DNA of 61,436 bases, counting the filler. It is 4 parts of 4 records of this genome, joined end to end, with 100 filler letters (N's around TTAATTAATTAA, not from the genome) between each part and the next. Parts side by side here need not be neighbours in the genome. Positions count along the whole stretch, not along the records: positions 53,318 to 61,436 come from SRR31156797_13011; 3 more parts are not named here. One strand, given 5' to 3'. The notes below the pieces were generated by a model. It saw nothing but the letters and a program-made list of their open reading frames with translations. It did not search any database and was not told where the DNA came from. This document shows positions 40,213-60,437 of the stretch, piece by piece. The position numbers and the translations under genes were made by a program. Every line of letters starts with the position of its first letter. The first letter of the stretch is position 1.

Positions 40213-42054
40213 ATGTTCATACCAACTACACAAGAAGAATTACAAAACCTAGGCTGGAGCCAACTTGATATTATCTTAGTTAGCGGAGATACGTATATAG
40301 ATTCTCCATATAGCGGTATGTCTATCATTGGTCAGCTTTTAATACAACAAGGTTACCATGTAGGGATCATCGCTCAACCTGATTATGAAAGTGATAAAGA
40401 TATCACAAGATTAGGTGCGCCACAGCTTTTTTGGGGAGTAAGTTCAGGTCTTGTAGATAGTATGGTAGCTAATTACACTGCATTGAAAAAGTTTCGAAAC
40501 TCCGATGACTTTACCCCTGGGGAGAAAAATACCAAACGACCTGATCGAGCTACTATCGTGTATAGTAACCTTATAAGAAGATATTTTAAAGATACCGCTC
40601 CAATTGTTTTAGGTGGGATTGAAGCGAGTCTTAGACGTGTGGCACATTATGATTTTTGGTCAAACAAAGTACGAGGATCAATCCTTTTTGATGCAAAAGC
40701 TGATTATCTTATCTATGGGATGGGTGAAAAAACAGTACTTGAACTAGCAAGTGCATTAAAAGAACAAAAAGATCCAAATGATATAAGAGGACTTTGTTAT
40801 ATTTCAAAAGAAAAAAATGAGAAGTATATAGAGCTTCCTACTTTAAAAGAGGCTCAAGATAAAAACGATAAAACAAAATTTATAGAGATGTTTCATCTTT
40901 TTTATGAAAATAATGACCCACTCACTTCAAAAGGTCTCATCCAAGAACACAATGGACGATATCTTATCCAAAACCCACCACAGTTTTATATGGATGAAAA
41001 AGAGATAGATAATGTGTATGATCTTGCCTTTGAAAGAGAAGTTCACCCATATTATGCAAAAGATGGAAGAGTAAAAGCGATGGAGACTATTCGCTTTTCG
41101 GTAACTACACACCATGGGTGTTATGGGGAGTGTAACTTTTGTGCGATCTCAGTGCATCAAGGAAGAACCATACGGAGTCGAAGTGAACGCTCTATTTTAG
41201 ATGAAGTAAAAGGTTTTACACAAAATCCAAAATTTAAAGGAACTATTAGTGATGTGGGTGGAGCTACCGCTAATATGTATGGATATGAATGTACTAAAAA
41301 ACTTGACAAGGGAGTTTGTGATGATAGAAGATGTACAGGCTTTCGTATGTTTAATCCAAACAATCGTAAAAAAGAGTGGGACAATTATAAGATCTGTCCA
41401 GTACTCAAACCGAACCACCAAAGAAATATCCAGCTTTTAAAAGATATAAGAGCAATTGATGGGGTCAAAAAAGTCTTTGTAAACTCAGGGATTCGATATG
41501 ATCTTATCAATGAAGATACACAACATGGGGAAGAGTATTTAAAAGAGATTGTAAGTCATCATGTAAGTGGGCAGATGAAGATAGCCCCAGAACATAGTGA
41601 AACAAAGGTGTTAAAATATATGGGAAAACCATCAAAAGATGTGTTGACAGATTTTAAAGCAAACTTTGAAAAACTCTCTCATAAAAGTGGGAAAAAACAG
41701 TTTCTGACCTATTATATGATCGCAGCCCATCCTGGGTGTAGTGAACAAGATATGAAAGATCTCAAAGAGTTTGCCAATAAAGATCTAAAGCTTAATCCTG
41801 AACAAGTACAAGTCTTCACCCCTACCCCATCTACTTATTCTACTTTGATGTATTATACTGAGCTTGATCCTTGGAGTATGGAAAAGATATACGTGGAAAA
41901 AGATCCACTGAAAAAACAGAAACAAAAAGATATAGTTACAGATAAACATACAAGTAAAACTTATAACTCAAAAGAGAACAAAAGTAATAAAAATAGAAAT
42001 TTTTCAGGAAAAAAGCGTTATAATAACAGTCACAAAAAATATGATTCAAGGTGA
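40213..42054 (+). CDS. ygiQ: YgiQ (UPF0313) radical SAM protein
   Basis: SGDTYIDSP, GGIEASLRR, CYGECNFC, QVQVFTPTP motifs. Confidence 0.92.
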   Translation: MFIPTTQEELQNLGWSQLDIILVSGDTYIDSPYSGMSIIGQLLIQQGYHVGIIAQPDYESDKDITRLGAPQLFWGVSSGLVDSMVANYTALKKFRNSDDFTPGEKNTKRPDRATIVYSNLIRRYFKDTAPIVLGGIEASLRRVAHYDFWSNKVRGSILFDAKADYLIYGMGEKTVLELASALKEQKDPNDIRGLCYISKEKNEKYIELPTLKEAQDKNDKTKFIEMFHLFYENNDPLTSKGLIQEHNGRYLIQNPPQFYMDEKEIDNVYDLAFEREVHPYYAKDGRVKAMETIRFSVTTHHGCYGECNFCAISVHQGRTIRSRSERSILDEVKGFTQNPKFKGTISDVGGATANMYGYECTKKLDKGVCDDRRCTGFRMFNPNNRKKEWDNYKICPVLKPNHQRNIQLLKDIRAIDGVKKVFVNSGIRYDLINEDTQHGEEYLKEIVSHHVSGQMKIAPEHSETKVLKYMGKPSKDVLTDFKANFEKLSHKSGKKQFLTYYMIAAHPGCSEQDMKDLKEFANKDLKLNPEQVQVFTPTPSTYSTLMYYTELDPWSMEKIYVEKDPLKKQKQKDIVTDKHTSKTYNSKENKSNKNRNFSGKKRYNNSHKKYDSR

Positions 42055-45000
42055 CATTATTGAAATTTAGATCTTTTTTACTATTGATTTTATTTACTCT
42101 TAGCACCTTTGCCAATGAAAACTTAGAAAAGATATCCTTACAGCTCCTTTGGAAACACCAATTTGAATTTGCTGGCTTTTATATGGCAAAAGAGAAAGGG
42201 TTTTACAAAGATGTTGGACTTGATGTTGAATTTAAAGAGTTTGATTTTGGTACAAATATTGTCTCTGATGTAGAAAAAGGGATCAGTACCTATGGTATTG
42301 GGTATCCAAATATTATTTTAGATAGATCAGAAGGTGCAAAGATCACTTTAATAAGTGCTATTTTACAATCTTCTCCTCATGTATTTATCTCACTAGAATC
42401 ATCAAATATCAATTCAATCAAAAACTTTAAAAATAAAAAAGTGATGATAGAAAGTGATGTAATTAGAACCGCTCCACTTTTAAGTCTTTTATATTCTCAA
42501 AATATTAAACTTGATGATATCCAAACTATACCGCCATCTTTTAATATGGATGATCTTATCAATGGAAAAGTAGATATCTATTCAGCTTTTATATCCAATG
42601 AAGTCTATAAACTCCAGCAAAAAAACATCCCTTATAAAGTATGGGATCCAAAAGATTATGGCTTTGATTTTTATAATGATATTTTATTTACTTCAAATAA
42701 AGAGATACAAAATAATCCAGCACGGGTAAAAAAGTTTCGAGAAGCGAGTCTGAAAGGTTGGGAATATGCTTTTAACAATCTAGAAGAAACCATAACACTT
42801 ATCTTAAACAAATACAATACCCAAAACAAAACAAAAGAAGCGTACCTTTATGAAGCAAAAGAGTTAAAAAAACTTGCTTTTTTAAATAACACTCCATTAG
42901 GAGATATTGATACTACAAAAATACAAAGAATAATAGATATTTATAACCTCATAGGACTAACTCATACACCTATAGATCTTGATTCTTTTATTTATGATCC
43001 AGATCAACAAAAAATATTATTAACTCCACAGGAGAAAGCTTTTTTAAAAAACAATCCAACTATTACAATTCACAATGAAAAACATTGGGCTCCTTTTAAC
43101 TTCAATGAAGAAAATACTCCAAAGGGGTACTCTACAGATTATATAAAACTATTAGCTCAAAAACTAGGACTTCGAACAAACTTTATTAGTGGTCCAACAT
43201 GGTCTGAGTTTTTAACTTTAATGAAACAAAAGAAAATAGACATAATGTTAAATATCGTTCATGATAAAGACAGAGAAGAATATATTGAGTTTACAAGACC
43301 ATATCTTAAACACACCAACTCACTCTTTACAAACTTAGACAATATCCACTCATTAGATGATCTAAAAAATAAATCAGTAGCGGTACCAAAAGATTTTTAT
43401 CTTGAAAGTTTTTTACAAAAAAACTATCCTGATATCACAATAGATACATATAAAAACATTCCTGAGTGTCTCTATGCTGTAATTGAAGGAAAAAGTGATG
43501 CAGTGATTGCCAATTTTGCTGTTGCTAATTATATTTTAAAAAAACATAACCTCTCTATAAAAAATATCAAACTCAATATTGATCAAAGATTGAATTTTGA
43601 TCTTAGACTTGGTGTTTCAAAACAAAAAGCGATCTTAAAAAATATTTTAGAAAAAGCTATGGATACAGTCACCCAAGAGGAACTTACGGCACTTTCTAAT
43701 AAATGGCTTGGTAGCCTTAATAACTCAGTGATCAACAATCTTAAACTCACTCCCTTAGAAAAAAAATATTTAGAAACAAAAAAACATATCACAATGTGTA
43801 TCGATCCAAATTGGATGCCTTTTGAAAAATTTGAAAAAAATAAACACATTGGAATCAGTGCAGATTATTTTAAAATCTTTCAAGAGTCTTTAGGGAAAAA
43901 AATAGAGGTGATCCCAACAAATACGTGGTCACAGTCTTTAAAATATGCACAACAAAGAAAATGTGATCTTCTCTCTTTAGCGATGGAAACACCAAAAAGA
44001 AAAGAGTATATGAACTTTACTTCCCCATATCTTAGTGTCCCTCTTGTTGTTGCGACCAATACAAAAGTAACTTTTATCAATGATGTAAAAGCTTTAAAAG
44101 GAAAAAAAGTAGGAATCCCTAAAGGATATGCCTTTGTTGAGATCTTTAAAGAAAAATATCCCTATATCAATATCATCGAAGTCCCTACTTTAAAAGAGGG
44201 ACTCCAACAGGTAAAAGAGGGAAAACTTTTTGGATATATTGGAACGCTTGCTTCTGTTGGATATATGTTTCAAACTGAGTTTACAGGGGAGCTTAAAATC
44301 GCAGGAAAGTTTGATGAACTTTGGGAGCTTGGGATTGGGGTAAGAAATGATGATATTATATTACTTGGGATCATGCAAAAGCTTGTGGATAGTCTTAATA
44401 CTGAGACAACACAAAACATCCTTAATAACTGGCTAGCAATCAAATATGAACAAAAAGTTGATTATAAGTTTTTATGGCAGATTTTAGCTATCGTTGCAGT
44501 GGTCTTATTTTTATTTATCTACCGACAATATATCCTTTTCCAATCTAATAAAAATCTTCAAGCAATAGTTGATGAAAAAACAAAAGAGCTAAAAGAGCTT
44601 AATAAAGATCTTGAACAAAAAGTAAAAGATTCAGTCGTTGAGATTAGGCAAAAAGATCAAATTCTTTATGAACAATCAAAAATGGCAGCTATGGGTGAGA
44701 TGATAGGAAATATATCTCATCAATGGAGACAGCCTTTAAGTATCATCAGTACAGCTGCTAGTGGAATCAAAATGAAACTAGAATTTGGACTATTTAAAAA
44801 AGAGGATGATGTCAAATCTCTTGATGCTATTACTGATGCAAGTATCTATCTATCACAAACGATTGATGACTTTAGAAACTTTTTAAAACCAAATCAAGAA
44901 AAAAAATATTTCAATGTAAAGGATATCATTGAAAAGCTCCTTTCTATGTTTGGAAGTAGTTTCCAAACCAATAATATAGAGATTATTTTAGAGACTCCTG

Positions 45001-45386
45001 ATTGTAAGATCCTAGGAAGTGAAAATGAACTGTTACAAGTGTTAATTAATATTCTAAATAACTCAAAAGATGCTTTTAAAGAAAAAGATATCAAAGAGAG
45101 TAAATTTATTTTTATCACTTTAAATATACTTCATGATCATATTGTGATCTCTATTAAAGACTCAGCTGGAGGGATCGATCCAAAAGTGATATCAAGTATT
45201 TTTGAACCGTACTTTACAACTAAACATAAAAGTGTGGGTACTGGAATTGGTCTGTATATGAGCTACCAGATCATTCGAAATAAATTTGATGGAAACATTC
45301 TAGCTTCTAATAAGACCTTTGAATATAATGAGCAGACATTAAAAGGAGCAGAGTTTGAGATAATATTACCTCTTACTCATACTTAA
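42051..45386 (+). CDS. Sensor histidine kinase with an NMT1/THI5-like domain and two family-3 substrate-binding domains
   Basis: WKHQFEFAGFYMA, WAPFNF and WMPFE domains, TM helix, SHQWRQPL H-box, GTGIGLYMS. Confidence 0.9.
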   Translation: MTLLKFRSFLLLILFTLSTFANENLEKISLQLLWKHQFEFAGFYMAKEKGFYKDVGLDVEFKEFDFGTNIVSDVEKGISTYGIGYPNIILDRSEGAKITLISAILQSSPHVFISLESSNINSIKNFKNKKVMIESDVIRTAPLLSLLYSQNIKLDDIQTIPPSFNMDDLINGKVDIYSAFISNEVYKLQQKNIPYKVWDPKDYGFDFYNDILFTSNKEIQNNPARVKKFREASLKGWEYAFNNLEETITLILNKYNTQNKTKEAYLYEAKELKKLAFLNNTPLGDIDTTKIQRIIDIYNLIGLTHTPIDLDSFIYDPDQQKILLTPQEKAFLKNNPTITIHNEKHWAPFNFNEENTPKGYSTDYIKLLAQKLGLRTNFISGPTWSEFLTLMKQKKIDIMLNIVHDKDREEYIEFTRPYLKHTNSLFTNLDNIHSLDDLKNKSVAVPKDFYLESFLQKNYPDITIDTYKNIPECLYAVIEGKSDAVIANFAVANYILKKHNLSIKNIKLNIDQRLNFDLRLGVSKQKAILKNILEKAMDTVTQEELTALSNKWLGSLNNSVINNLKLTPLEKKYLETKKHITMCIDPNWMPFEKFEKNKHIGISADYFKIFQESLGKKIEVIPTNTWSQSLKYAQQRKCDLLSLAMETPKRKEYMNFTSPYLSVPLVVATNTKVTFINDVKALKGKKVGIPKGYAFVEIFKEKYPYINIIEVPTLKEGLQQVKEGKLFGYIGTLASVGYMFQTEFTGELKIAGKFDELWELGIGVRNDDIILLGIMQKLVDSLNTETTQNILNNWLAIKYEQKVDYKFLWQILAIVAVVLFLFIYRQYILFQSNKNLQAIVDEKTKELKELNKDLEQKVKDSVVEIRQKDQILYEQSKMAAMGEMIGNISHQWRQPLSIISTAASGIKMKLEFGLFKKEDDVKSLDAITDASIYLSQTIDDFRNFLKPNQEKKYFNVKDIIEKLLSMFGSSFQTNNIEIILETPDCKILGSENELLQVLINILNNSKDAFKEKDIKESKFIFITLNILHDHIVISIKDSAGGIDPKVISSIFEPYFTTKHKSVGTGIGLYMSYQIIRNKFDGNILASNKTFEYNEQTLKGAEFEIILPLTHT

Positions 45387-53448: not shown

Positions 53449-54822
53449 ATGAAAATAAAAAAGCAACGAGAAGCGATGCTTAATGGAAATATGTATAGGT
53501 TAATTATTAGCCTGTCTCTGCCTATTATGCTCAATAATTTAATACAAACTGTATATAATCTAACTGATACTTATTTCGTAAGTAAAATAGGTGGAACACA
53601 GGTTGCAGCAATAACGTTCGTATGGCCTGTAATTTTTTTGGTTCTTGCATTTGGTATGGGAATAGGTGTTGCAGGAACAGCGATGATCTCCCAATATATT
53701 GGAGGAGATAAAATGGAGCTTGCGGAGGAAACTACAGGTCAGATTCTGAGTTTCTCGCTGGTCTTATCGATTATATTAGGAATTGTTGGATATATTGTTT
53801 CTCCTGCAATAATTAATTTAATGGGAGCAAGTGGTGATTTACTTTCCGAAGGAACTATTTATTTGAAAATAATGTTCCTAAGTTCACCTTTTATTTTTAT
53901 GTCATTTTCCTATTCAGCTATAAAACATGCTGAGGGAGATACTGTATCACCAATGATAATCTCATTAGTTTCAGTAGGTATAAATATTATTTTAGATCCT
54001 ATCTTTATTTTTGTATTTCATTTAGGGATAAGAGGAGCAGGGTTTGCAACTCTTTTAGCCAGATTTATCTCTACAGTAATTATTTTGTACAAACTTTTTA
54101 ATAAAAATAATGGGATTCAAGTAAAATTATCAAACCTGAAACTAAAAATATCTATTATTAAAGAAATAATTAAAATAGGATTACCTGCATCAATGGGACA
54201 CTTTATCACTGCATTTGGTTTTGTGATTATGAATGTCTTAGTTGTCAGATTTGGTGCAGATACACTTGCTGCACTTGGTATAGGTAATAGAATTAATTCT
54301 CTGCTGTTTATGCCTGCAATGGGAATTGGTAGTGCTGTGACCTCTATAGCGGGTCAAAACATAGGTGCTGAAAATTACACGAGAGTAAAGGAAGCTGTAT
54401 TGAAAAGTTGTATTTTATCATTACTATATTCAGTAACAGGAACGATTATACTTATAGCTAATCGGATGCATATAGCAGGTATCTTTACAGATAACGCAGT
54501 TATATTGCAGAAGAGTACACATTATCTTATCTTTGTAGCTTTATCAGTGCCGTTTTTTGGAGTATTTCAGATACTTTTGGGAGTGTTTCAAGGCTCGGGA
54601 CATACCGTGTTATCTATGATCATTAATTTATCAAGACTGTGGGCGATAAGATTACCGGGTTTATTTATATTAAGCAGGTTTTTTAGAATGAGTGAAGAAG
54701 CTATATGGTATGCGATATTTTTTAGTAACGTAATTATTACAATTATAGCACTTATAGTTTATGCCAGTGGATACTGGAAAAAATCTGTAATAAAATCTGT
54801 TAATGCAAAAAGTATTGGATAA
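53449..54822 (+). CDS. MATE-family efflux transporter
   Basis: YNLTDTYFV, NIILDPIFIF, GQNIGA, ~12 TM helices. Confidence 0.93.
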   Translation: MKIKKQREAMLNGNMYRLIISLSLPIMLNNLIQTVYNLTDTYFVSKIGGTQVAAITFVWPVIFLVLAFGMGIGVAGTAMISQYIGGDKMELAEETTGQILSFSLVLSIILGIVGYIVSPAIINLMGASGDLLSEGTIYLKIMFLSSPFIFMSFSYSAIKHAEGDTVSPMIISLVSVGINIILDPIFIFVFHLGIRGAGFATLLARFISTVIILYKLFNKNNGIQVKLSNLKLKISIIKEIIKIGLPASMGHFITAFGFVIMNVLVVRFGADTLAALGIGNRINSLLFMPAMGIGSAVTSIAGQNIGAENYTRVKEAVLKSCILSLLYSVTGTIILIANRMHIAGIFTDNAVILQKSTHYLIFVALSVPFFGVFQILLGVFQGSGHTVLSMIINLSRLWAIRLPGLFILSRFFRMSEEAIWYAIFFSNVIITIIALIVYASGYWKKSVIKSVNAKSIG

Positions 54823-54856: not shown

Positions 54857-55684
54857 ATGAAAGCTTTAGTTAATAAAATTATTCCATTTTCGTCAGTTGA
54901 CGGGCCTGGAAACAGAACTGTGATATTTTTACAAGGATGTAACATGAATTGCTTGTATTGTCACAATCCTGAAACAATAAATAAATGTTTGCATTGTGGT
55001 ATATGTATACCTCATTGCCCTGTAGGAGCTTTAGAGCTTTCTTACGGGAAAGTAAAGTGGGATGAAGAAAAGTGTGTAGCATGTGGCAAATGTGAAGATG
55101 TGTGTCCACATAATGCAACGCCTAGAGTAAAAGAGTATGGAATTAATGAGTTAGTAGCTGAAATTTTGAAATATAAAAATTTCATAGCCGGGATTACTTT
55201 TAGCGGTGGTGAATGTACACTGCAAAATGAGTTTATTACAGAGGTAGCGCAAGAGTTAAAGAAACATGAGCTTACTACTTTTGTTGATACAAATGGTCTG
55301 GTGGATTTTAGTATGCTAAATAAATTTGTAGCATCAGTTGATAAATTTATGCTGGATATAAAAGCATGGCATAAAGATGAGCATATTAAATTAACAGATG
55401 TTTCTAATGAAACGGTTATTAAGAATCTAAAATATCTAATAAATGAGAATAAGTTATTTGAAGTAAGGACAGTTGTTGTACCAAATATACTTTCAAATGA
55501 ACTCACAGTTCAAGAGCTTAGCAAATTGATCTCAGGAACTGATATTAGATATAAACTGATTAAGTACAGAGCAAAAGGTGTTAGAGAAGATCTGATTAAC
55601 GAGAATTTGCCAAATGATGAGTATATGCAGAGCTTAAAAGATATAGCGGAAAAATTAGGAGTAAAAGATATAGTTATTATTTAA
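54857..55684 (+). CDS. yjjW: YjjW-family glycyl-radical activating enzyme
   Basis: IIPFSSVDGPGNR, CNMNCLYCHNPETI, 2x[4Fe-4S] ferredoxin insert, SGGECT. Confidence 0.88.
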   Translation: MKALVNKIIPFSSVDGPGNRTVIFLQGCNMNCLYCHNPETINKCLHCGICIPHCPVGALELSYGKVKWDEEKCVACGKCEDVCPHNATPRVKEYGINELVAEILKYKNFIAGITFSGGECTLQNEFITEVAQELKKHELTTFVDTNGLVDFSMLNKFVASVDKFMLDIKAWHKDEHIKLTDVSNETVIKNLKYLINENKLFEVRTVVVPNILSNELTVQELSKLISGTDIRYKLIKYRAKGVREDLINENLPNDEYMQSLKDIAEKLGVKDIVII

Positions 55685-55688
55685 AATG

Positions 55689-55720
55689 AAAAAGAGCAGA
55701 TAAAAAATCTGCTCTTCTTT
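55689..55720. terminator. Bidirectional terminator
   Basis: AAAAAGAGCAGAT-aaaaa-ATCTGCTCTTCTTT. Confidence 0.8.
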
Positions 55721-55865
55721 CTATTAATTATAAATTAATAACTAGGAAACCCCGGATCCTACTCCGGGGACCTTTTAAGTAGTGGTAAGGTACCTAAAAG
55801 GATTTTCTCTCTTAAATGGTAGAAATTTAAGGATATAAATGTGGTCTAGTGTAAAAGATTGTCTT
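55689..55865 (-). ncRNA. Candidate structured ncRNA (~180 nt)
   Basis: Sigma70 promoter upstream and terminator downstream. Three hairpins are enclosed by a closing stem, two loops are complementary, and there is no AUG. Confidence 0.65.
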
Positions 55866-55871
55866 AAAGAG

Positions 55872-55900
55872 ATGATACAATATCTCCAAAGAAAAGTCAA
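55872..55900 (-). promoter_or_regulatory. Sigma70-type promoter
   Basis: TTGACT-N17-TATCAT on the minus strand. Confidence 0.75.
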
Positions 55901-56102
55901 GCGTTTTTTGTATACTATTAGCTTAGCTTAATTAAGTAATTAAGCAAAATCTATACCTACATCTCAATAAAACGCAGTAATGGTGAAAATGACAACCAAT
56001 ATTAAAGCAAACAAACTGTCTAAGAGGAAAAAGTTAATAAAGTTACACAGTTCAAATAAAGAGAGTCTTTTGAAAAAAAACTGAAAAAATTTGAAAAAAA
56101 AT

Positions 56103-56136: not shown

Positions 56137-56562
56137 TTAATTTGACATCATATTGTCATCTTTCATCATCATATCATCTGATTTATCCATAACATCGAAC
56201 TCTTTTCCACCTAGAAAATTTCCTTCCATATCTACAACTTCAACCATCCAAGTTCCTTTTAACCATAGATTTTTAGTTGACCAAGTTCTCCATCTGCTAC
56301 CTTTGACTTTTAACTTGATTTTAGCCATCTCTTTTGGAGTACCATCCTCTTGGATATAACTCCAGATGTGATAAATATAAGTTTCCTCACCAATATCTCT
56401 TACGTCGTTGAAATAATAAGCTTTTGATTTAAATGCAAATTCAGTTTTTGCCTCTGCCGGTTCCCTGTTTTCTACCATGTCAGTTAAAACTTCTCTAGGT
56501 ATATTTAGAGAGAAACTAACAGCGCTGACTAAAATAAAAGCAATTAATAAGATTTTTTTCAA
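56137..56562 (-). CDS. Exported DUF2914-like protein
   Basis: Signal peptide, NREP, IYHIW, SRWRTWSTK, GTWMVEV. TTG start with AGGAGG. Confidence 0.75.
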   Translation of the reverse strand: MKKILLIAFILVSAVSFSLNIPREVLTDMVENREPAEAKTEFAFKSKAYYFNDVRDIGEETYIYHIWSYIQEDGTPKEMAKIKLKVKGSRWRTWSTKNLWLKGTWMVEVVDMEGNFLGGKEFDVMDKSDDMMMKDDNMMSN

Positions 56563-56694: not shown

Positions 56695-58452
56695 CTAAAA
56701 CTTCTCGCATAGAGTTGCTGCTGAAATATCTACACCAACTATTTTAGATGTCTTTTTGAGCTTAAAAATCAAACCACTAACATCTTCTATACTGTAGCCG
56801 GCTTTATTTTCCTTTTTTATTTCTAAAATACTTGCAGAAACTTGAAGAAGTGGAAAATGCCTTGAGTTTCCATCACGATCTTTTGCAAGTATATAACCTC
56901 TGGATATATCTTCTTGAGAGTAGAATTTTTTAGCTTCTTCATTGAATTCACTTATCAATTTATGAATTCTCATATATAGTTCAAAGTATGTTTTATTAGG
57001 ATGGTATCTAATACCGATGAAGAAATCATCTCCACCTATATGTCCTTCGAAGCTTGAACTTTCAAAACTTTCCTTTCGCATTATTTCAGCGAAAAGAAGT
57101 ATAGCCTGATCACCCATTTTAAAGCCATATTTATCATTAAATGCCTTAAAATTATCAAAATCAAAGTATACTAAAGCATAATTATGATATGCAGACAAAA
57201 GAGCTTCTTTAATATAATCATGGATCATGTTATTTCCGGGTAATTTTGTTAATGGATTTTCATTACTTGCGTTTATCAGTTTTTTCTCTGAGATGATACT
57301 AATAATCGATATGAAATCAAGATATCCCAGATATTTCCCCTTATCCACGATTATTAGCTGCTGAATATCTCTATTAATATTAAAAATATCAATGATTTTT
57401 GATATTTCAAAATTTATGTCGCAGGTTATACTGGGAGATATTATATCTCTCAGGCTTTTTTTAGCCAGAATTTCTCTTCCGTATAATTTATACATATAGT
57501 TTTTTATTATATTTTCTTCTATTATTCCTATAGGTTTATCGTTTATATCCAAAACGATAATCACTGGAACCTCTTTATTTTTCTCAAGTGTTGTGAGAAG
57601 TTCATCGATTGAAGTATCCGCATTGATAGCGGTACCACGATTAAGTTTACTTTCAAGTAATGCTCTGTCCTCACTCAGAAAAAACGAGTTTTCCTCTTCC
57701 AAATGAATTCTATCAAGGTATTCTGAATAAAGGTTTTCAACTTTTTTAATAGGTTTTTGTATATAAAAACCTTGTGCCAAATCACAGCCGATTTTTCTAC
57801 ATGTTAGCAGTTCATCTCTATTTTCAATACCGTGAGCAACAATTACTCCACCTAGAGTATGAACTAAATTTATTATATTGGAAGCAAAAAATTGCTTTTT
57901 AATATCATTGTGAATGCTGTTTAAGAATAACTTATCTATTTTGACAATATCCGGTTCCAGATAATATAGTTTTTCGAGATTGGAAAAACCACTTCCAAAA
58001 TCATTAATTGCAATTGAATATCCATTTTCTTTATAAAAAGCCAGAACCTTTTTTACTTCAGAGTAAGCCTCTATTTTATAAAATTTAGAGATCTCAAAGC
58101 AAATATTTTCTTTATAAAGTTCCTGTTTTTCTACGATTTTATTAATTGCAGAAAAAGAGTAATCAGGATTCTCAAGAACTCTGTTATCTAAATTATAAAA
58201 AAGTTTGGAGTTCTTATAGCCTTTAATCTCTTTATATTGCTCAATAGCTTTTTCAAATAGTGCACGGTCTAATTTATGAAGAAAATGTTTTTTATGGGCA
58301 TAGTTAAACACGTCTCTTATCTCATCAAATCCGTTTTTTTCAAAATTACGTAGCAGTGCTTCATATCCATAAACAATTCCGCTATTTAAATTTATAACAG
58401 GTTGAAAAGCAAAGTTAAATGAATTGACTATTTTTTCGAGTTTACTTGCCAT
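56695..58452 (-). CDS. EAL-CBS-GGDEF protein
   Basis: FQP..EALLR, central CBS-like pair, NPLTKLPGN, FKAFNDKYGF, GGDDF. Confidence 0.9.
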   Translation of the reverse strand: MASKLEKIVNSFNFAFQPVINLNSGIVYGYEALLRNFEKNGFDEIRDVFNYAHKKHFLHKLDRALFEKAIEQYKEIKGYKNSKLFYNLDNRVLENPDYSFSAINKIVEKQELYKENICFEISKFYKIEAYSEVKKVLAFYKENGYSIAINDFGSGFSNLEKLYYLEPDIVKIDKLFLNSIHNDIKKQFFASNIINLVHTLGGVIVAHGIENRDELLTCRKIGCDLAQGFYIQKPIKKVENLYSEYLDRIHLEEENSFFLSEDRALLESKLNRGTAINADTSIDELLTTLEKNKEVPVIIVLDINDKPIGIIEENIIKNYMYKLYGREILAKKSLRDIISPSITCDINFEISKIIDIFNINRDIQQLIIVDKGKYLGYLDFISIISIISEKKLINASNENPLTKLPGNNMIHDYIKEALLSAYHNYALVYFDFDNFKAFNDKYGFKMGDQAILLFAEIMRKESFESSSFEGHIGGDDFFIGIRYHPNKTYFELYMRIHKLISEFNEEAKKFYSQEDISRGYILAKDRDGNSRHFPLLQVSASILEIKKENKAGYSIEDVSGLIFKLKKTSKIVGVDISAATLCEKF

Positions 58453-58856: not shown

Positions 58857-60437
58857 GTGATTGGAATGCTGAATTTTATTGAAAATATAAAAAATCGAAT
58901 ATTCGCTGATAATGAAGAACTTAATTATTCAGAAGTAGATATTTATTCTCTATTAGAAAATATAACTTATTCCTTCGTAGAAAGAATGCAGGAAAAAGAG
59001 ATAAATCTAGTTTATGATATATCTAAGACGATACCTCAATATGTATATGTTGATGGTGAAAAGTTGAAAAAAACTTTAGTTGGAATAATGAATACTTTGA
59101 TTGAAGCCAACTTCTTCAAAGAAATAATCTTGGAAGTTAGCAACAAAGGGGATAAGCTGTTCTTCTCTATATATGAGCATAATTTGGATATAAATAAGAA
59201 GAAATTAACTCAGATAGTACAAGAGCTTGATAAAGATAATTATAAATATATTCCACATATCAGAAAACTATTTAATGAAAAATATACAGTCCAGTTCCAT
59301 CTTAAATATAGAGGGAAGAAAAAATCTGAGCTGAAATTTGATGAGGAACTTAATGTTATTTATATGGTTGAGCAAAAATTTTCAAATATTTTTGTTAGAG
59401 AGTTTTTAGAAGAACTTGGTGCAAATGTGACAGAACTTGTAGGTGTATTCGAGCTTGGAGAGTTTATAAAAAATCTCGACAGAGTTGCAGAGTGTTCCTA
59501 TATTTTAGTATCTGATGAATATTTTAATGAGATAAATTGGGATACTTTTAGAGAGATCAAAGAGGATTATATACTTAGAGAAAAAGTGGTGATTCTAAAC
59601 TTTGATCATAATAAATTACCCTCTATTAAATCGTTTAAACTAAATGTACTTGAGGCAAATCCCCTATCTAAATACAATATTTATAATAATCTATTGATCT
59701 ATCACAAGAGAGTAACTGATAACCTAGAAGAGAGAAAAAATAAAAAAATTCTTATAGTTGAAGATAATAGAGTAAACGCAGAAGTTTTTACTGAGTATTT
59801 GAAATTATGTAACTTAAAATGCGAAACAGCTACGAGTGGTGAAGAAGCACTAAAAAAAATTGAGAATGAACATTATGATATGATATTTACAGATATTCAG
59901 CTTCCTGATATAGATGGCTTTGAGATAGCGAGGCGGATCAGAGCAAGTAATAAATTTATACCAATTATTGCTGTAACTGTTCAGCTTTATTCGGGATACG
60001 AAGAGGAGTACTCTAATGCAGGAATAGATGAATATATCGCGAAACCTGTTATATTTGAAGATCTGCAAAAGATTCTTTTCAAATATCTAAATCTTGGTCA
60101 TGCTGATTTTGATTTAGTAAAACGAGAATATGGAGATAAAATATTCGAAATACTTGTTAAAAATCATTTGAAATTTATAGATCAATATCTTATTGATTTT
60201 GAGTTAACATTAAAAAACGGCGAAAGTGATGCTATTAAAAAGAGCGCACATAAATTAAAGGGAAGTATAAGTAATTTTAAGATGAATAAAATTCTTAGAT
60301 TACTTAATGAAGTAATCTATTCTGATATTGAAGTTGCAGAGATGGTTAGATTGGGAAGTTTGATCATTAAAGAAGTTAAGAATCTGAATAAAGAGTTACG
60401 AAAATTTGCTACTGAATCAGAGATACAGTTTCATTAA
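58857..60437 (+). CDS. Degenerate kinase-REC-Hpt phosphorelay protein
   Basis: HATPase-like remnant at the N-terminus, receiver ILIVEDN..FTDIQLP..AKP, Hpt AHKLKGS. Confidence 0.8.
   Translation: MIGMLNFIENIKNRIFADNEELNYSEVDIYSLLENITYSFVERMQEKEINLVYDISKTIPQYVYVDGEKLKKTLVGIMNTLIEANFFKEIILEVSNKGDKLFFSIYEHNLDINKKKLTQIVQELDKDNYKYIPHIRKLFNEKYTVQFHLKYRGKKKSELKFDEELNVIYMVEQKFSNIFVREFLEELGANVTELVGVFELGEFIKNLDRVAECSYILVSDEYFNEINWDTFREIKEDYILREKVVILNFDHNKLPSIKSFKLNVLEANPLSKYNIYNNLLIYHKRVTDNLEERKNKKILIVEDNRVNAEVFTEYLKLCNLKCETATSGEEALKKIENEHYDMIFTDIQLPDIDGFEIARRIRASNKFIPIIAVTVQLYSGYEEEYSNAGIDEYIAKPVIFEDLQKILFKYLNLGHADFDLVKREYGDKIFEILVKNHLKFIDQYLIDFELTLKNGESDAIKKSAHKLKGSISNFKMNKILRLLNEVIYSDIEVAEMVRLGSLIIKEVKNLNKELRKFATESEIQFH

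What the first reader, a model, noticed from the sequence alone, without database searches (positions are those of the whole stretch)
55689..55900. Unannotated ~180-nt RNA with a four-way junction and kissing loops
Seen on the minus strand: a TTGACT-N17-TATCAT promoter (start ~55865) and a closing stem ACUAG/CUAGU (55850-46 / 55745-41) that encloses three hairpins. H1 is CUUAAAU-[UUCUACC]-AUUUAAG (55831-55811). H2 is CCUUUUAGGUA-[CCUUACCAC]-UACUUAAAAGG (55801-55771). H3 is CCCCGGA-[GUAGGA]-UCCGGGG (55769-55750). A terminator follows. H1 loop UUCUAC can pair with the whole H3 loop GUAGGA (6 bp, one G-U). The G-U pairs in H2 and in the kiss work only on the promoter strand. There is no AUG and no downstream gene in the same direction, so a riboswitch is unlikely. 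I do not recognise it as tRNA, 6S, SRP, tmRNA or RNase P. Inference: a standalone tertiary-structured ncRNA (sRNA, protein sponge or ribozyme-like).
Basis: partly seen in the sequence, partly recalled or inferred. Interest (0 to 1): 0.8.

Follow-up and report, generated by a model that had tools for sequence, protein, structure and literature searches.

The report
Conserved three-hairpin small RNA gene
This is a real, self-contained gene for a roughly 180-base non-coding RNA that is kept almost letter for letter in related environmental bacteria while its surroundings change. It matches no described RNA family, and its function, the proposed four-way junction and the loop-loop kiss are all unproven.

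Summary
On the minus strand, 55900-55689 carries a TTGACT-N17-TATCAT promoter, an ORF-free transcript of about 177 nt and a terminator.

The best evidence is comparative. Contigs from four public runs of four studies cover only the RNA (55733-55909) at 95-100% identity, and their flanks are unlike the window. In two of them the A-tract, -35 and -10 stay in register while the spacer is scrambled. All four base changes that I could place keep hairpin pairing on the minus strand or fall in a linker. One is a compensatory A-U to G-C change in H2.

The closing stem shrinks to 3 pairs in one homologue. The loop1-loop3 kiss has no covariation, and its chance rate is about 4%.

Rfam 15, ARAGORN, phage, plasmid, viral and metagenome scans gave no relative.

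Verdict: a new, lineage-restricted structured small RNA of a probable Campylobacterota bacterium. It most likely acts through its exposed C/U-rich ACCA loops. The mechanism is inferred, not shown. Interest is moderate.

The parts
55901..55910 (-). A-rich tract (UP-element-like) just upstream of the -35 box
   Evidence: Read. Compared by hand with the loose ends, 8 of 10 positions are the same in X3 and 8 of 10 in X5.
55895..55900 (-). -35 box TTGACT
   Evidence: It sits in the same register in X5 (TTGACT) and X3 (TTGACA), read by hand from the loose ends.
55872..55877 (-). -10 box TATCAT. The inferred transcription start is about 55865.
   Evidence: It lies inside the parts of X2, X3 and X5 that align. 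The start is inferred from spacing only.
55851..55865 (-). Unpaired 5' leader
   Evidence: No difference in X3.
55846..55850 (-). 5' strand of the proposed closing stem P1 (ACUAG)
   Evidence: pair probability 0.77-0.91. Its partner is not conserved in X5.
55834..55845 (-). Linker J1, single-stranded, holds the first ACCAC motif
   Evidence: No listed difference in X2, X3, X5 or X16.
55808..55833 (-). Hairpin H1. Loop UUCUACC at 55824-55818 holds the second ACCA.
   Evidence: probability 0.61-0.77. Identical in X3, and no listed difference in X2, X5 or X16. No covariation is available.
55802..55807 (-). Linker J2, the variable single-stranded segment
   Evidence: Two substitutions in X5 (55806, 55807). 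X3 has one extra base here, read by hand from its loose end.
55771..55801 (-). Hairpin H2, 11 pairs. Loop CCUUACCAC at 55790-55782 holds the third ACCAC.
   Evidence: probability 0.9-1.0. In X3 the loop-closing A-U pair becomes G-C and the loop is unchanged. In X16 the G of the G-U pair becomes A, giving A-U (55794). In X3 the same G becomes A, but its partner base is not visible.
55750..55769 (-). Hairpin H3, 7 pairs, G+C-rich. Loop GUAGGA at 55762-55757.
   Evidence: probability 0.97-1.0. In X16 the A at 55763 becomes G. This stays paired on the minus strand if the partner base is unchanged.
55741..55745 (-). 3' strand of the proposed closing stem P1 (CUAGU)
   Evidence: Covered by X16, with at most one unplaced difference. 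X5 reads differently here.
55722..55740 (-). Small A+U-only hairpin between the core and the terminator
   Evidence: The sequence is not conserved in X5, which has a different A+U hairpin (hand reading).
55689..55719 (-). Intrinsic terminator. It works in both directions and is shared with the convergent activase gene, which ends at 55684.
   Evidence: 13 pairs followed by a T run on the minus strand; also scored on the plus strand.

Best explanation
Window 55900-55689 (minus strand) is an independent gene for a non-coding RNA of about 177 nt in a probable Campylobacterota (Arcobacter-like) bacterium.

Shown or read directly from the sequence:
- It has a sigma-70-type promoter with an A-tract, a -35 box and a -10 box.
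- The core is three consecutive hairpins (H1, H2, H3) after a 5' single-stranded stretch.
- A variable A+U hairpin and an intrinsic terminator follow the core.
- The RNA and its promoter boxes are conserved in relatives, while the spacer and flanks are not.

Inferred mechanism:
- It acts in trans as a regulatory RNA.
- Its working surfaces are the three exposed C/U-rich segments that each carry ACCA(C/U): linker J1, the H1 loop and the H2 loop (which also has CCUU).
- These would pair with G-rich, Shine-Dalgarno-like stretches of target mRNAs of the form UGGUA(A/G)(G/A).
- H3 mainly stabilises the RNA. Its GUAGGA loop mimics such a target and could mask the H1 or H2 loop.

I put the existence of the gene at about 0.85. 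The base-pairing mechanism is the most likely of several, not a demonstrated one. The confidence given here (0.45) is for gene plus mechanism together.
For: Gene architecture:
- The promoter, the terminator and a separate terminator for the upstream gene at 56130-56103 make this its own transcription unit.
- There is no start codon in the transcript and no downstream gene on the same strand.

Selection (contigs of 4 runs from 4 studies):
- The aligned pieces cover 55733-55865 (X16, 3 differences), 55749-55881 (X5, 6 differences), 55808-55882 (X3, 0 differences) and 55800-55909 (X2, 5 differences).
- In every run the contig runs on into sequence unlike the window.
- Read by hand from the loose ends, X3 and X5 keep the A-tract and TTGAC(A/T) exactly 17 nt from TATCAT. 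Only 4 of 12 (X3) and 5 of 13 (X5) spacer letters match.

Structure and strand:
- The fold is the predicted minimum, with z = -2.62 on the minus strand against -1.03 on the plus strand.
- The placed changes are A-U to G-C at the top of H2 (X3), G-U to A-U in H2 (X16; X3 has the same G to A change, partner not visible), A-U to G-U in H3 (X16), and two substitutions in linker J2 (X5). X3 also has one extra base in J2.
- With these changes the minus-strand RNA keeps all pairs in both the window and X16. The plus strand would carry a C-A mismatch in each.

Motifs:
- ACCA occurs three times in the core, each time in a predicted unpaired segment.
- The H2 loop is unchanged in X3 although the stem around it changed.
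Against: - No transcript evidence: no listed holder run is RNA, so expression is inferred from the promoter only.
- No target evidence: the 53 translation-initiation regions in the window pair no better with the unpaired segments than shuffled controls do. The best was -12.2 kcal/mol, against a shuffle minimum of -14.3 and a 5% point of -10.6. The complement of the H2 loop is not enriched (5 matches with up to 1 mismatch against 4.2 expected, one of them the RNA itself).
- The whole 5' half is invariant (75 of 75 positions in X3), stems included. That is more constraint than a seed-pairing small RNA usually shows, and it fits a protein-bound or more intricately folded RNA at least as well.
- Comparative data are thin. 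There are four partial homologues at 95-100% identity, differences near alignment ends are not listed, and several readings were made by hand from 30-letter loose ends.
- The two strands do not differ in raw fold energy.
Confidence: 0.45

Rival explanations
1. The RNA binds or sequesters a protein. It presents three copies of a single-stranded (Y)UACCA(C/U) unit on J1, the H1 loop and the H2 loop. A protein would bind them in the way CsrB/RsmZ present GGA repeats to CsrA or CrcZ presents A-rich repeats to Hfq/Crc (comparison recalled). The RNA would act by titrating that protein.
For: - There are three ACCA motifs in 131 nt of 30-40% G+C sequence, all in predicted unpaired regions.
- The 5' half is invariant, stems included, in X3 (75 of 75 positions), as expected if a protein reads both shape and sequence.
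- No mRNA target stood out.
- A strong promoter with an A-tract fits an abundant RNA.
Against: - No protein is known to me that reads ACCA repeats.
- Three sites is few for a sponge.
- The alignment of the three units is weak beyond ATC(C)TT and ACCA (63% mean column identity).
- There is no partner gene next to the RNA: the neighbours are DUF2914, an EAL-GGDEF protein and a radical-SAM activase.
Confidence: 0.22
2. The RNA is a compact, tertiary-folded molecule: a four-way junction closed by ACUAG/CUAGU and locked by a kiss between the H1 loop and the H3 loop. It would work as a ligand-binding, catalytic or scaffold RNA.
For: - The closing stem is in the minimum-energy and centroid folds, with pair probability 0.77-0.91.
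- The H1 and H3 loops can form 6 contiguous pairs.
- Near-total sequence conservation of the core is typical of intricately folded RNAs.
Against: - In X5 the 3' strand of the closing stem reads CUAAA. No change is listed in the 5' strand, so only 3 pairs remain (hand reading).
- There is no covariation for the kiss.
- Random loops reach the same complementarity in 3.6% of trials. The H3 loop can also pair with 5 bases of the H2 loop, so the match follows from the shared YUAC motif.
- No ribozyme or riboswitch model of Rfam 15 matches, even at E-value 10.
- There is no expression platform and no downstream gene.
Confidence: 0.1
3. The RNA acts in cis. Either read-through past the shared two-way terminator makes an antisense RNA against the 3' end of the convergent glycyl-radical-enzyme activase gene, or the unit shields that gene from convergent transcription.
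For: - The RNA ends 5 nt beyond the stop codon of the convergent activase gene and shares its terminator.
- In X2 the end of the activase gene (55634-55684, 2 differences) and the RNA are both present in the run, though on separate contigs.
Against: - In X5, and apparently in X16, the sequence downstream of the core differs from the window.
- Selection falls on the hairpin core, not on the part facing the activase gene.
- The terminator is strong: 13 pairs followed by a T run.
Confidence: 0.07
4. It is not an RNA gene. Either the hairpins are a DNA-level or mobile repeat element, or they are a chance fold in an A+T-rich spacer.
For: - The plus strand folds with the same raw energy.
- Promoter-like sites are not enriched in the region.
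- The element sits in differing flanks, as a mobile unit would.
- No transcript has been shown.
Against: - There is only one copy in the 61 kb window; the next best covariance-model hit is 13.5 bits at E = 6.
- There are no terminal repeats and no transposase or integrase next to it.
- It is absent from phage, plasmid and viral collections.
- Promoter boxes conserved around a scrambled spacer, together with strand-specific G-U changes, are hard to explain without transcription from the minus strand.
Confidence: 0.06

Closest known systems
Base-pairing small RNAs with C/U-rich exposed loops, such as RepG of Helicobacter pylori (PMC8295292, abstract seen in the listing) and RsaE/RoxS of Firmicutes (recalled)
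   Same: - A stand-alone gene with its own promoter and terminator and no ORF.
- Pyrimidine-rich unpaired segments, repeated within one RNA, that could pair with G-rich or Shine-Dalgarno-like mRNA stretches.
- A host lineage that, as far as I recall, lacks Hfq.
   Different: - No sequence or covariance-model similarity to any such Rfam family.
- The motif is ACCA/CCUU, not the RsaE UCCC motif.
- No target has been identified.
- The stems are conserved as strictly as the loops.
6S RNA of Campylobacterota (C. jejuni and H. pylori; PMC3847290, passages read)
   Same: About 180 nt, a sigma-70 promoter, stand-alone, and one of the few RNAs conserved across species in this phylum.
   Different: - 6S is a long closing stem, a central bubble and a terminal stem, and it lies upstream of purD in both species.
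- Here the fold is three tandem hairpins, the neighbours are DUF2914, an EAL-GGDEF protein and an activase, and the Rfam 6S models give no hit even at E-value 10.
Protein-titrating RNAs such as CsrB/RsmZ (recalled)
   Same: A short motif repeated in loops and linkers of a multi-hairpin RNA, with high conservation.
   Different: Only one loop GGA (the H3 loop GUAGGA) plus one GGA at the top of the H3 stem. The repeated motif is ACCA, and only three copies are present.
Unnamed intergenic candidates restricted to the genus Arcobacter, from the GC-IGR survey of Arcobacter sp. L (Stav et al. 2019, PMC6429828, passages read)
   Same: The same kind of object in the same likely lineage: a structured intergenic region with narrow phylogenetic spread that was never given a family.
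   Different: I could not check identity.

Membership tests
Any Rfam 15 family | Covariance-model score at or above the family's gathering threshold | tested here: not met
   - 0 matches in the whole window.
- 18 sub-threshold matches, the best being Arrc11 at 25.8 bits against a threshold of 52, aligned on the terminator only.
- on the core alone, 3 matches of 13 bits or less at E-values of 4.5 or more.
Stand-alone bacterial small RNA gene (generic kind) | Own promoter and intrinsic terminator, in an intergenic position | tested here: met
   The promoter boxes are conserved in X3 and X5.
Stand-alone bacterial small RNA gene (generic kind) | No protein-coding potential | tested here: met
   No ATG, GTG or TTG in the transcript. 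The only ORF (41 aa) starts in the -35 box and has no homologue.
Stand-alone bacterial small RNA gene (generic kind) | A detectable transcript | not testable with these tools
   No RNA run was listed as a holder. This says nothing about expression.
6S RNA | Long closing stem formed by the 5' and 3' ends, a large central bubble and a terminal stem | tested here: not met
   The minimum-energy and centroid folds are three tandem hairpins, and the comparative changes support H2 and H3.
6S RNA | In Campylobacterota, a position upstream of purD (PMC3847290) | tested here: not met
   The neighbours are a YjjW-type activase, DUF2914 and an EAL-GGDEF protein.
Riboswitch or cis-regulatory leader | A regulated gene downstream on the same strand, with an expression platform | tested here: not met
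   The RNA ends at a terminator that faces a convergent gene. No minus-strand gene follows.
tRNA / tmRNA | Cloverleaf or tmRNA features recognised by ARAGORN | tested here: not met
   0 genes in the window.
CsrB/RsmZ-type sponge | Many GGA motifs in hairpin loops and linkers (recalled definition) | tested here: not met
   One loop GGA and one stem-top GGA, both in H3.
Small self-cleaving ribozymes with multi-helix junctions (twister-sister, hammerhead, hatchet, pistol) | Conserved catalytic core, as captured by the Rfam models | tested here: not met
   No such family appears among the matches up to E-value 10. Cleavage activity itself cannot be tested here.
   It is compatible with X16 (at most one unplaced change). 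It falls to 3 pairs in X5, as read by hand from a 30-letter loose end.
   No listed difference in loop 1 in the 4 homologues. Loop 3 lies where differences are not listed. The chance rate of the complementarity is 3.6%.

The most novel reading that the evidence does not exclude
The RNA is a new class of compactly folded, protein-binding or catalytic RNA of Arcobacter-like Campylobacterota. It would be a junction RNA whose three ACCA-bearing single strands and GUAGGA loop form a defined tertiary architecture. That would explain why nearly every nucleotide of the 5' half is frozen while even the promoter spacer has randomised. Such an RNA would be a housekeeping-grade ncRNA that has escaped annotation in a phylum known for having very few conserved small RNAs.
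Probability: 0.12. Interest if true: 0.75.

Novelty: new member of a known kind. Interest (0 to 1): 0.45.

Why it matters
Campylobacterota lack Hfq and ProQ (recalled). [quoted passage not shown]

A small RNA kept at 95-100% identity across organisms from marine sediment, sediment and soil metagenomes and a named organism, while its own promoter spacer has diverged to randomness, is therefore a good entry point into RNA-based regulation in the free-living, environmentally abundant Arcobacter-like branch.

If it proves to be a protein-binding or tertiary-folded RNA rather than a seed-pairing one, it would define a new RNA family. If it is an ordinary base-pairing small RNA, it is a useful but unsurprising addition.

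Tried and rejected
**Whole genome.** None is held for the window.

**Genome-contig scan with the neighbouring activase.** It returned 15 loci, the best at 48% identity in Clostridia MAGs. Covariance model R1 found nothing there beyond the window's own copy: the next best hit was 20.4 bits at E = 0.1 in 281,176 bases.

**Reaching Campylobacterota genomes through the genome search.**
- The only genome handles I could get were unrelated: G001-G004, with 0 of 4 matching.
- An Aliarcobacter plasmid locus gave only a record handle, with no match. It cannot serve as a centre (error).
- No GTDB relative was therefore searched. This is a gap in the work, not evidence of absence.

**Viral contigs.**
- The H3-based pattern gave 7 loci. 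R1 scored them at 19.6 bits or less, without H1 or H2 likeness and partly on the other strand, so they are unrelated G+C hairpins.
- The J1+loop1 pattern and the loop2+H3 pattern gave 0 loci each.

**Metagenome contigs.** The J1+loop1 pattern gave 6 loci, all an unrelated repeat. R1 made no match at the pattern sites, and I read two of the loci.

**Phages and plasmids.** blastn gave no match.

**Sequencing runs.** No RNA holder was listed.

**Pseudo-ORF trick.** I searched with the 41-aa frame that covers the RNA to catch miscalled ORFs in relatives. There was no candidate.

**Target search within the window.** Not above shuffles.

**Internal three-fold repeat.** The alignment is weak beyond ATC(C)TT and ACCA, so I keep it as an observation only.

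**Earlier notes of this scan.** Nothing for this genome or sequence. The word search returned only unrelated small-RNA candidates.

**Literature.** Searches for Arcobacter with sRNA, ncRNA or TSS terms, and for stretches of the sequence, found no description of this RNA. Searches were too broad to be informative. The supplements of PMC6429828, which list unnamed Arcobacter candidates, could not be seen.

Full report
**1. The observation**

- TTGACT (55900-55895), a 17-nt spacer and TATCAT (55877-55872). The simple promoter scan scores this 10 of 12.
- A 5' leader, then ACUAG (55850-46) facing CUAGU (55745-41).
- Hairpins H1 (55831-55811), H2 (55801-55771, with one G-U pair) and H3 (55769-55750).
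- A small A+U hairpin and an intrinsic terminator at 55719-55689.

RNAfold gives this structure as both the minimum-energy and the centroid fold, for the full transcript and for the core. Pair probabilities are about 1.0 for H2 and H3, 0.69-0.77 for H1 and 0.77-0.91 for the closing stem.

Against dinucleotide shuffles:

| Stretch | z-score | Shuffles as stable |
|---|---|---|
| Full transcript | -5.51 | 0 of 200 |
| Core, minus strand | -2.62 | 3 of 200 |
| Core, plus strand | -1.03 | 26 of 200 |

Much of the full-transcript score comes from the terminator. The raw energies of the two strands of the core are equal. The promoter scan is not enriched in this A+T-rich region (6 sites against 8.2 +/- 2.8 expected), so the promoter needed other support.

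The transcript contains no ATG, GTG or TTG. The only ORF over it (41 aa) starts inside the -35 box. No gene follows on this strand.

**2. Context**

- The RNA lies between convergent genes.
- Upstream on the same strand are an EAL-GGDEF-CBS protein (56695-58452) and a DUF2914 protein (56137-56562). The latter has its own terminator at 56130-56103.
- On the other strand, a MatE transporter and a YjjW-family glycyl-radical-enzyme activase (54857-55684) run towards the RNA and share its two-way terminator.
- The RNA is therefore its own transcription unit.
- The window is 30.5% G+C.
- The host is probably a member of the Campylobacterota. This is an inference, not an identification. It rests on three results:
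  - Its DnaB passes the cut-off of NCBIfam NF006306 (641 bits against 596). None of 14 control genomes from other phyla does.
  - Its best solved relative is 4zc0, which I recall to be the H. pylori helicase.
  - Its best plasmid tblastn hits are from Hydrogenimonas, Arcobacter and Aliarcobacter.

**3. Known families**

- Rfam 15 gives nothing at gathering thresholds in the whole window.
- In E-value mode the 18 weak matches sit on the terminator. The best is 25.8 bits against a threshold of 52.
- The core alone gives three matches of 13 bits or less.
- ARAGORN finds no tRNA or tmRNA.
- 6S RNA of this phylum is a closing stem, bubble and terminal stem upstream of purD (PMC3847290, passages). 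Neither the fold nor the neighbourhood fits.

**4. Relatives**

No genome is held for the window.

*Searches that found no homologue*
- My single genome-contig scan, made with the activase, found only distant relatives of that protein (48% identity or less, mostly Clostridia MAGs). A single-sequence covariance model (R1) found no RNA in those loci.
- I could not obtain a genome handle inside the Campylobacterota, so no GTDB relative was searched.
- Pattern scans of viral contigs gave only unrelated hairpins or nothing.
- The one metagenome scan gave six chance hits in an unrelated repeat.
- Phage and plasmid blastn gave nothing.

*The informative result: public sequencing runs*

Seventeen runs of ten studies hold part of the 301-nt query, and none is on record as RNA. 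I laid four of them, from four studies, at 80% identity or more.

| Run | Source | Part aligned | Differences |
|---|---|---|---|
| X16 | coded organism | 55733-55865 | 3 |
| X5 | soil metagenome | 55749-55881 | 6 |
| X3 | sediment metagenome | 55808-55882 | 0 |
| X2 | marine sediment metagenome | 55800-55909 | 5 |

- Apart from three short pieces elsewhere (51, 37 and 36 nt), the aligned pieces cover only the RNA.
- One of the short pieces is the end of the activase gene in X2 (55634-55684, 2 differences). It suggests that X2 is a close relative carrying the same two neighbouring genes, though on separate contigs.
- In all four runs the contigs continue into sequence unlike the window.

*The promoter in X3 and X5*

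I read the 30-letter loose ends by hand.
- Both continue collinearly upstream of the -10 box, with the A-tract largely kept (8 of 10 positions each) and TTGACA or TTGACT exactly where the window has TTGACT.
- Only 4 of 12 (X3) and 5 of 13 (X5) spacer letters agree.
- Conserved boxes around a randomised spacer, next to 75 of 75 identical RNA positions in X3, show that both the promoter and the RNA are under selection.

**5. What the changes say about structure**

The differences that I could place are these:
- X3: at the top of H2, GUA...UAC becomes GUG...CAC. This is a compensatory A-U to G-C change, and the nine-base loop stays unchanged.
- X16: the G of the H2 G-U pair becomes A, giving A-U. 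X3 shows the same G to A change, but its partner base lies beyond the visible letters.
- X16: the A at 55763 becomes G. The top pair of H3 becomes G-U, or G-C if the one unplaced difference is its partner.
- X5: two substitutions in linker J2. X3 has one extra base in the same linker.

No placed change breaks a hairpin pair. In both the window and X16 the minus-strand RNA keeps every pair, whereas the plus strand would carry a C-A mismatch in each. Together with the promoter, this assigns the strand.

Limits of these data:
- Four partial, closely related sequences.
- Differences within about 30 nt of alignment ends are not listed.
- H1 shows no variation at all, so it has no comparative support.

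**6. The junction and the kiss**

The 3' strand of the closing stem is covered only by X16 (compatible) and X5. In X5 the sequence after H3 diverges and reads CUAAA where the window has CUAGU. No change is listed in the 5' strand, so three pairs are left. A UUAGU further downstream could substitute, but that is speculation. The four-way junction is therefore not a conserved feature on present evidence. Three tandem hairpins is the safer description.

The loop1-loop3 complementarity (6 pairs) is real. However, random loops of these sizes and this composition reach it in 3.6% of trials. The H3 loop also pairs with 5 bases of the H2 loop, because loops 1 and 2 share YUAC. No homologue varies in loop 1. 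Loop 3 lies where differences are not reported. The kiss is untested.

**7. How it most likely works**

Shown:
- A conserved promoter, RNA and hairpins.
- No coding potential.
- An independent transcription unit.

Inferred:
- The unpaired parts are pyrimidine-rich, and each carries ACCA: J1 has GACCACA, loop 1 has CUACCA, and loop 2 has CCUUACCAC.
- H1 and H2 both begin AUCCUU.
- By analogy with C/U-rich-loop small RNAs, such as RepG (abstract) and RsaE (recalled), I take trans base-pairing to G-rich, ribosome-binding-site-like stretches as the most likely mode. H3 would act as a stabiliser and possible internal mimic.

Against this reading:
- The 53 initiation regions in the window pair no better than shuffles.
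- The complement of loop 2 is not enriched.
- The complete invariance of the 5' half, stems included, suits a protein-bound RNA at least as well.

**8. Novelty and verdict**

I found no description of this RNA:
- Searches for Arcobacter with sRNA, ncRNA or TSS terms found nothing.
- A search for stretches of the sequence found nothing.
- Two further searches were too broad to help.

Stav et al. 2019 (PMC6429828, passages) report unnamed candidates restricted to the genus Arcobacter in Arcobacter sp. L. Their list is in supplements that I could not open, so prior detection as an unnamed candidate cannot be excluded.

I file it as a new member of a known kind: a lineage-restricted stand-alone structured small RNA. 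Interest is 0.45: a well-supported gene with unusually strict conservation, but with no function, no transcript data and a thin comparative base.

Noticed in passing
window 54857-55684 (+): A YjjW-family glycyl-radical-enzyme activase (365.6 bits against a cut-off of 250.2) sits directly after a MatE transporter gene (53449-54822), where its usual glycyl-radical-enzyme partner would be expected. Its best relatives among GTDB representative genomes are Clostridia MAGs at 48% identity or less, in a genome whose DnaB looks campylobacterotal. It may have been acquired horizontally.
   Followed up: partly
window 55927-55944 (-): An 8-bp inverted repeat (CTTAATTA / TAATTAAG, 2-nt gap) lies about 30-45 nt upstream of the -35 box of the RNA promoter. 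It could be an operator for a regulator. X2's sequence upstream of 55909 is unlike the window, so the repeat is probably not conserved there.
   Followed up: no
window 55779-55861 (-): The leader-J1 segment, H1 and the 5' half of H2 each read ATC(C)TT ... ACCA(C/T) at a spacing of 25-34 nt. This suggests an old internal triplication, but the alignment is weak (63% mean column identity).
   Followed up: partly
window 56695-58452 (-) and 58857-60437 (+), 42051-45386 (+): The neighbourhood is dense in signalling proteins: an EAL-GGDEF-CBS protein, a hybrid kinase/receiver protein, and an 1111-aa histidine kinase with several periplasmic solute-binding domains. No link to the RNA was found.
   Followed up: no
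elsewhere in the window, none within 2 kb of the finding: The window contains several short runs of N. At least one small ORF runs into one of them. They do not touch the RNA locus.
   Followed up: no
L023 5867-5895, L027 2713-2741 and four more metagenome loci: The six metagenome contigs hit by my J1+loop1 pattern share a near-identical stretch of several hundred bases among themselves. This is an unrelated repeat family in those samples.
   Followed up: no
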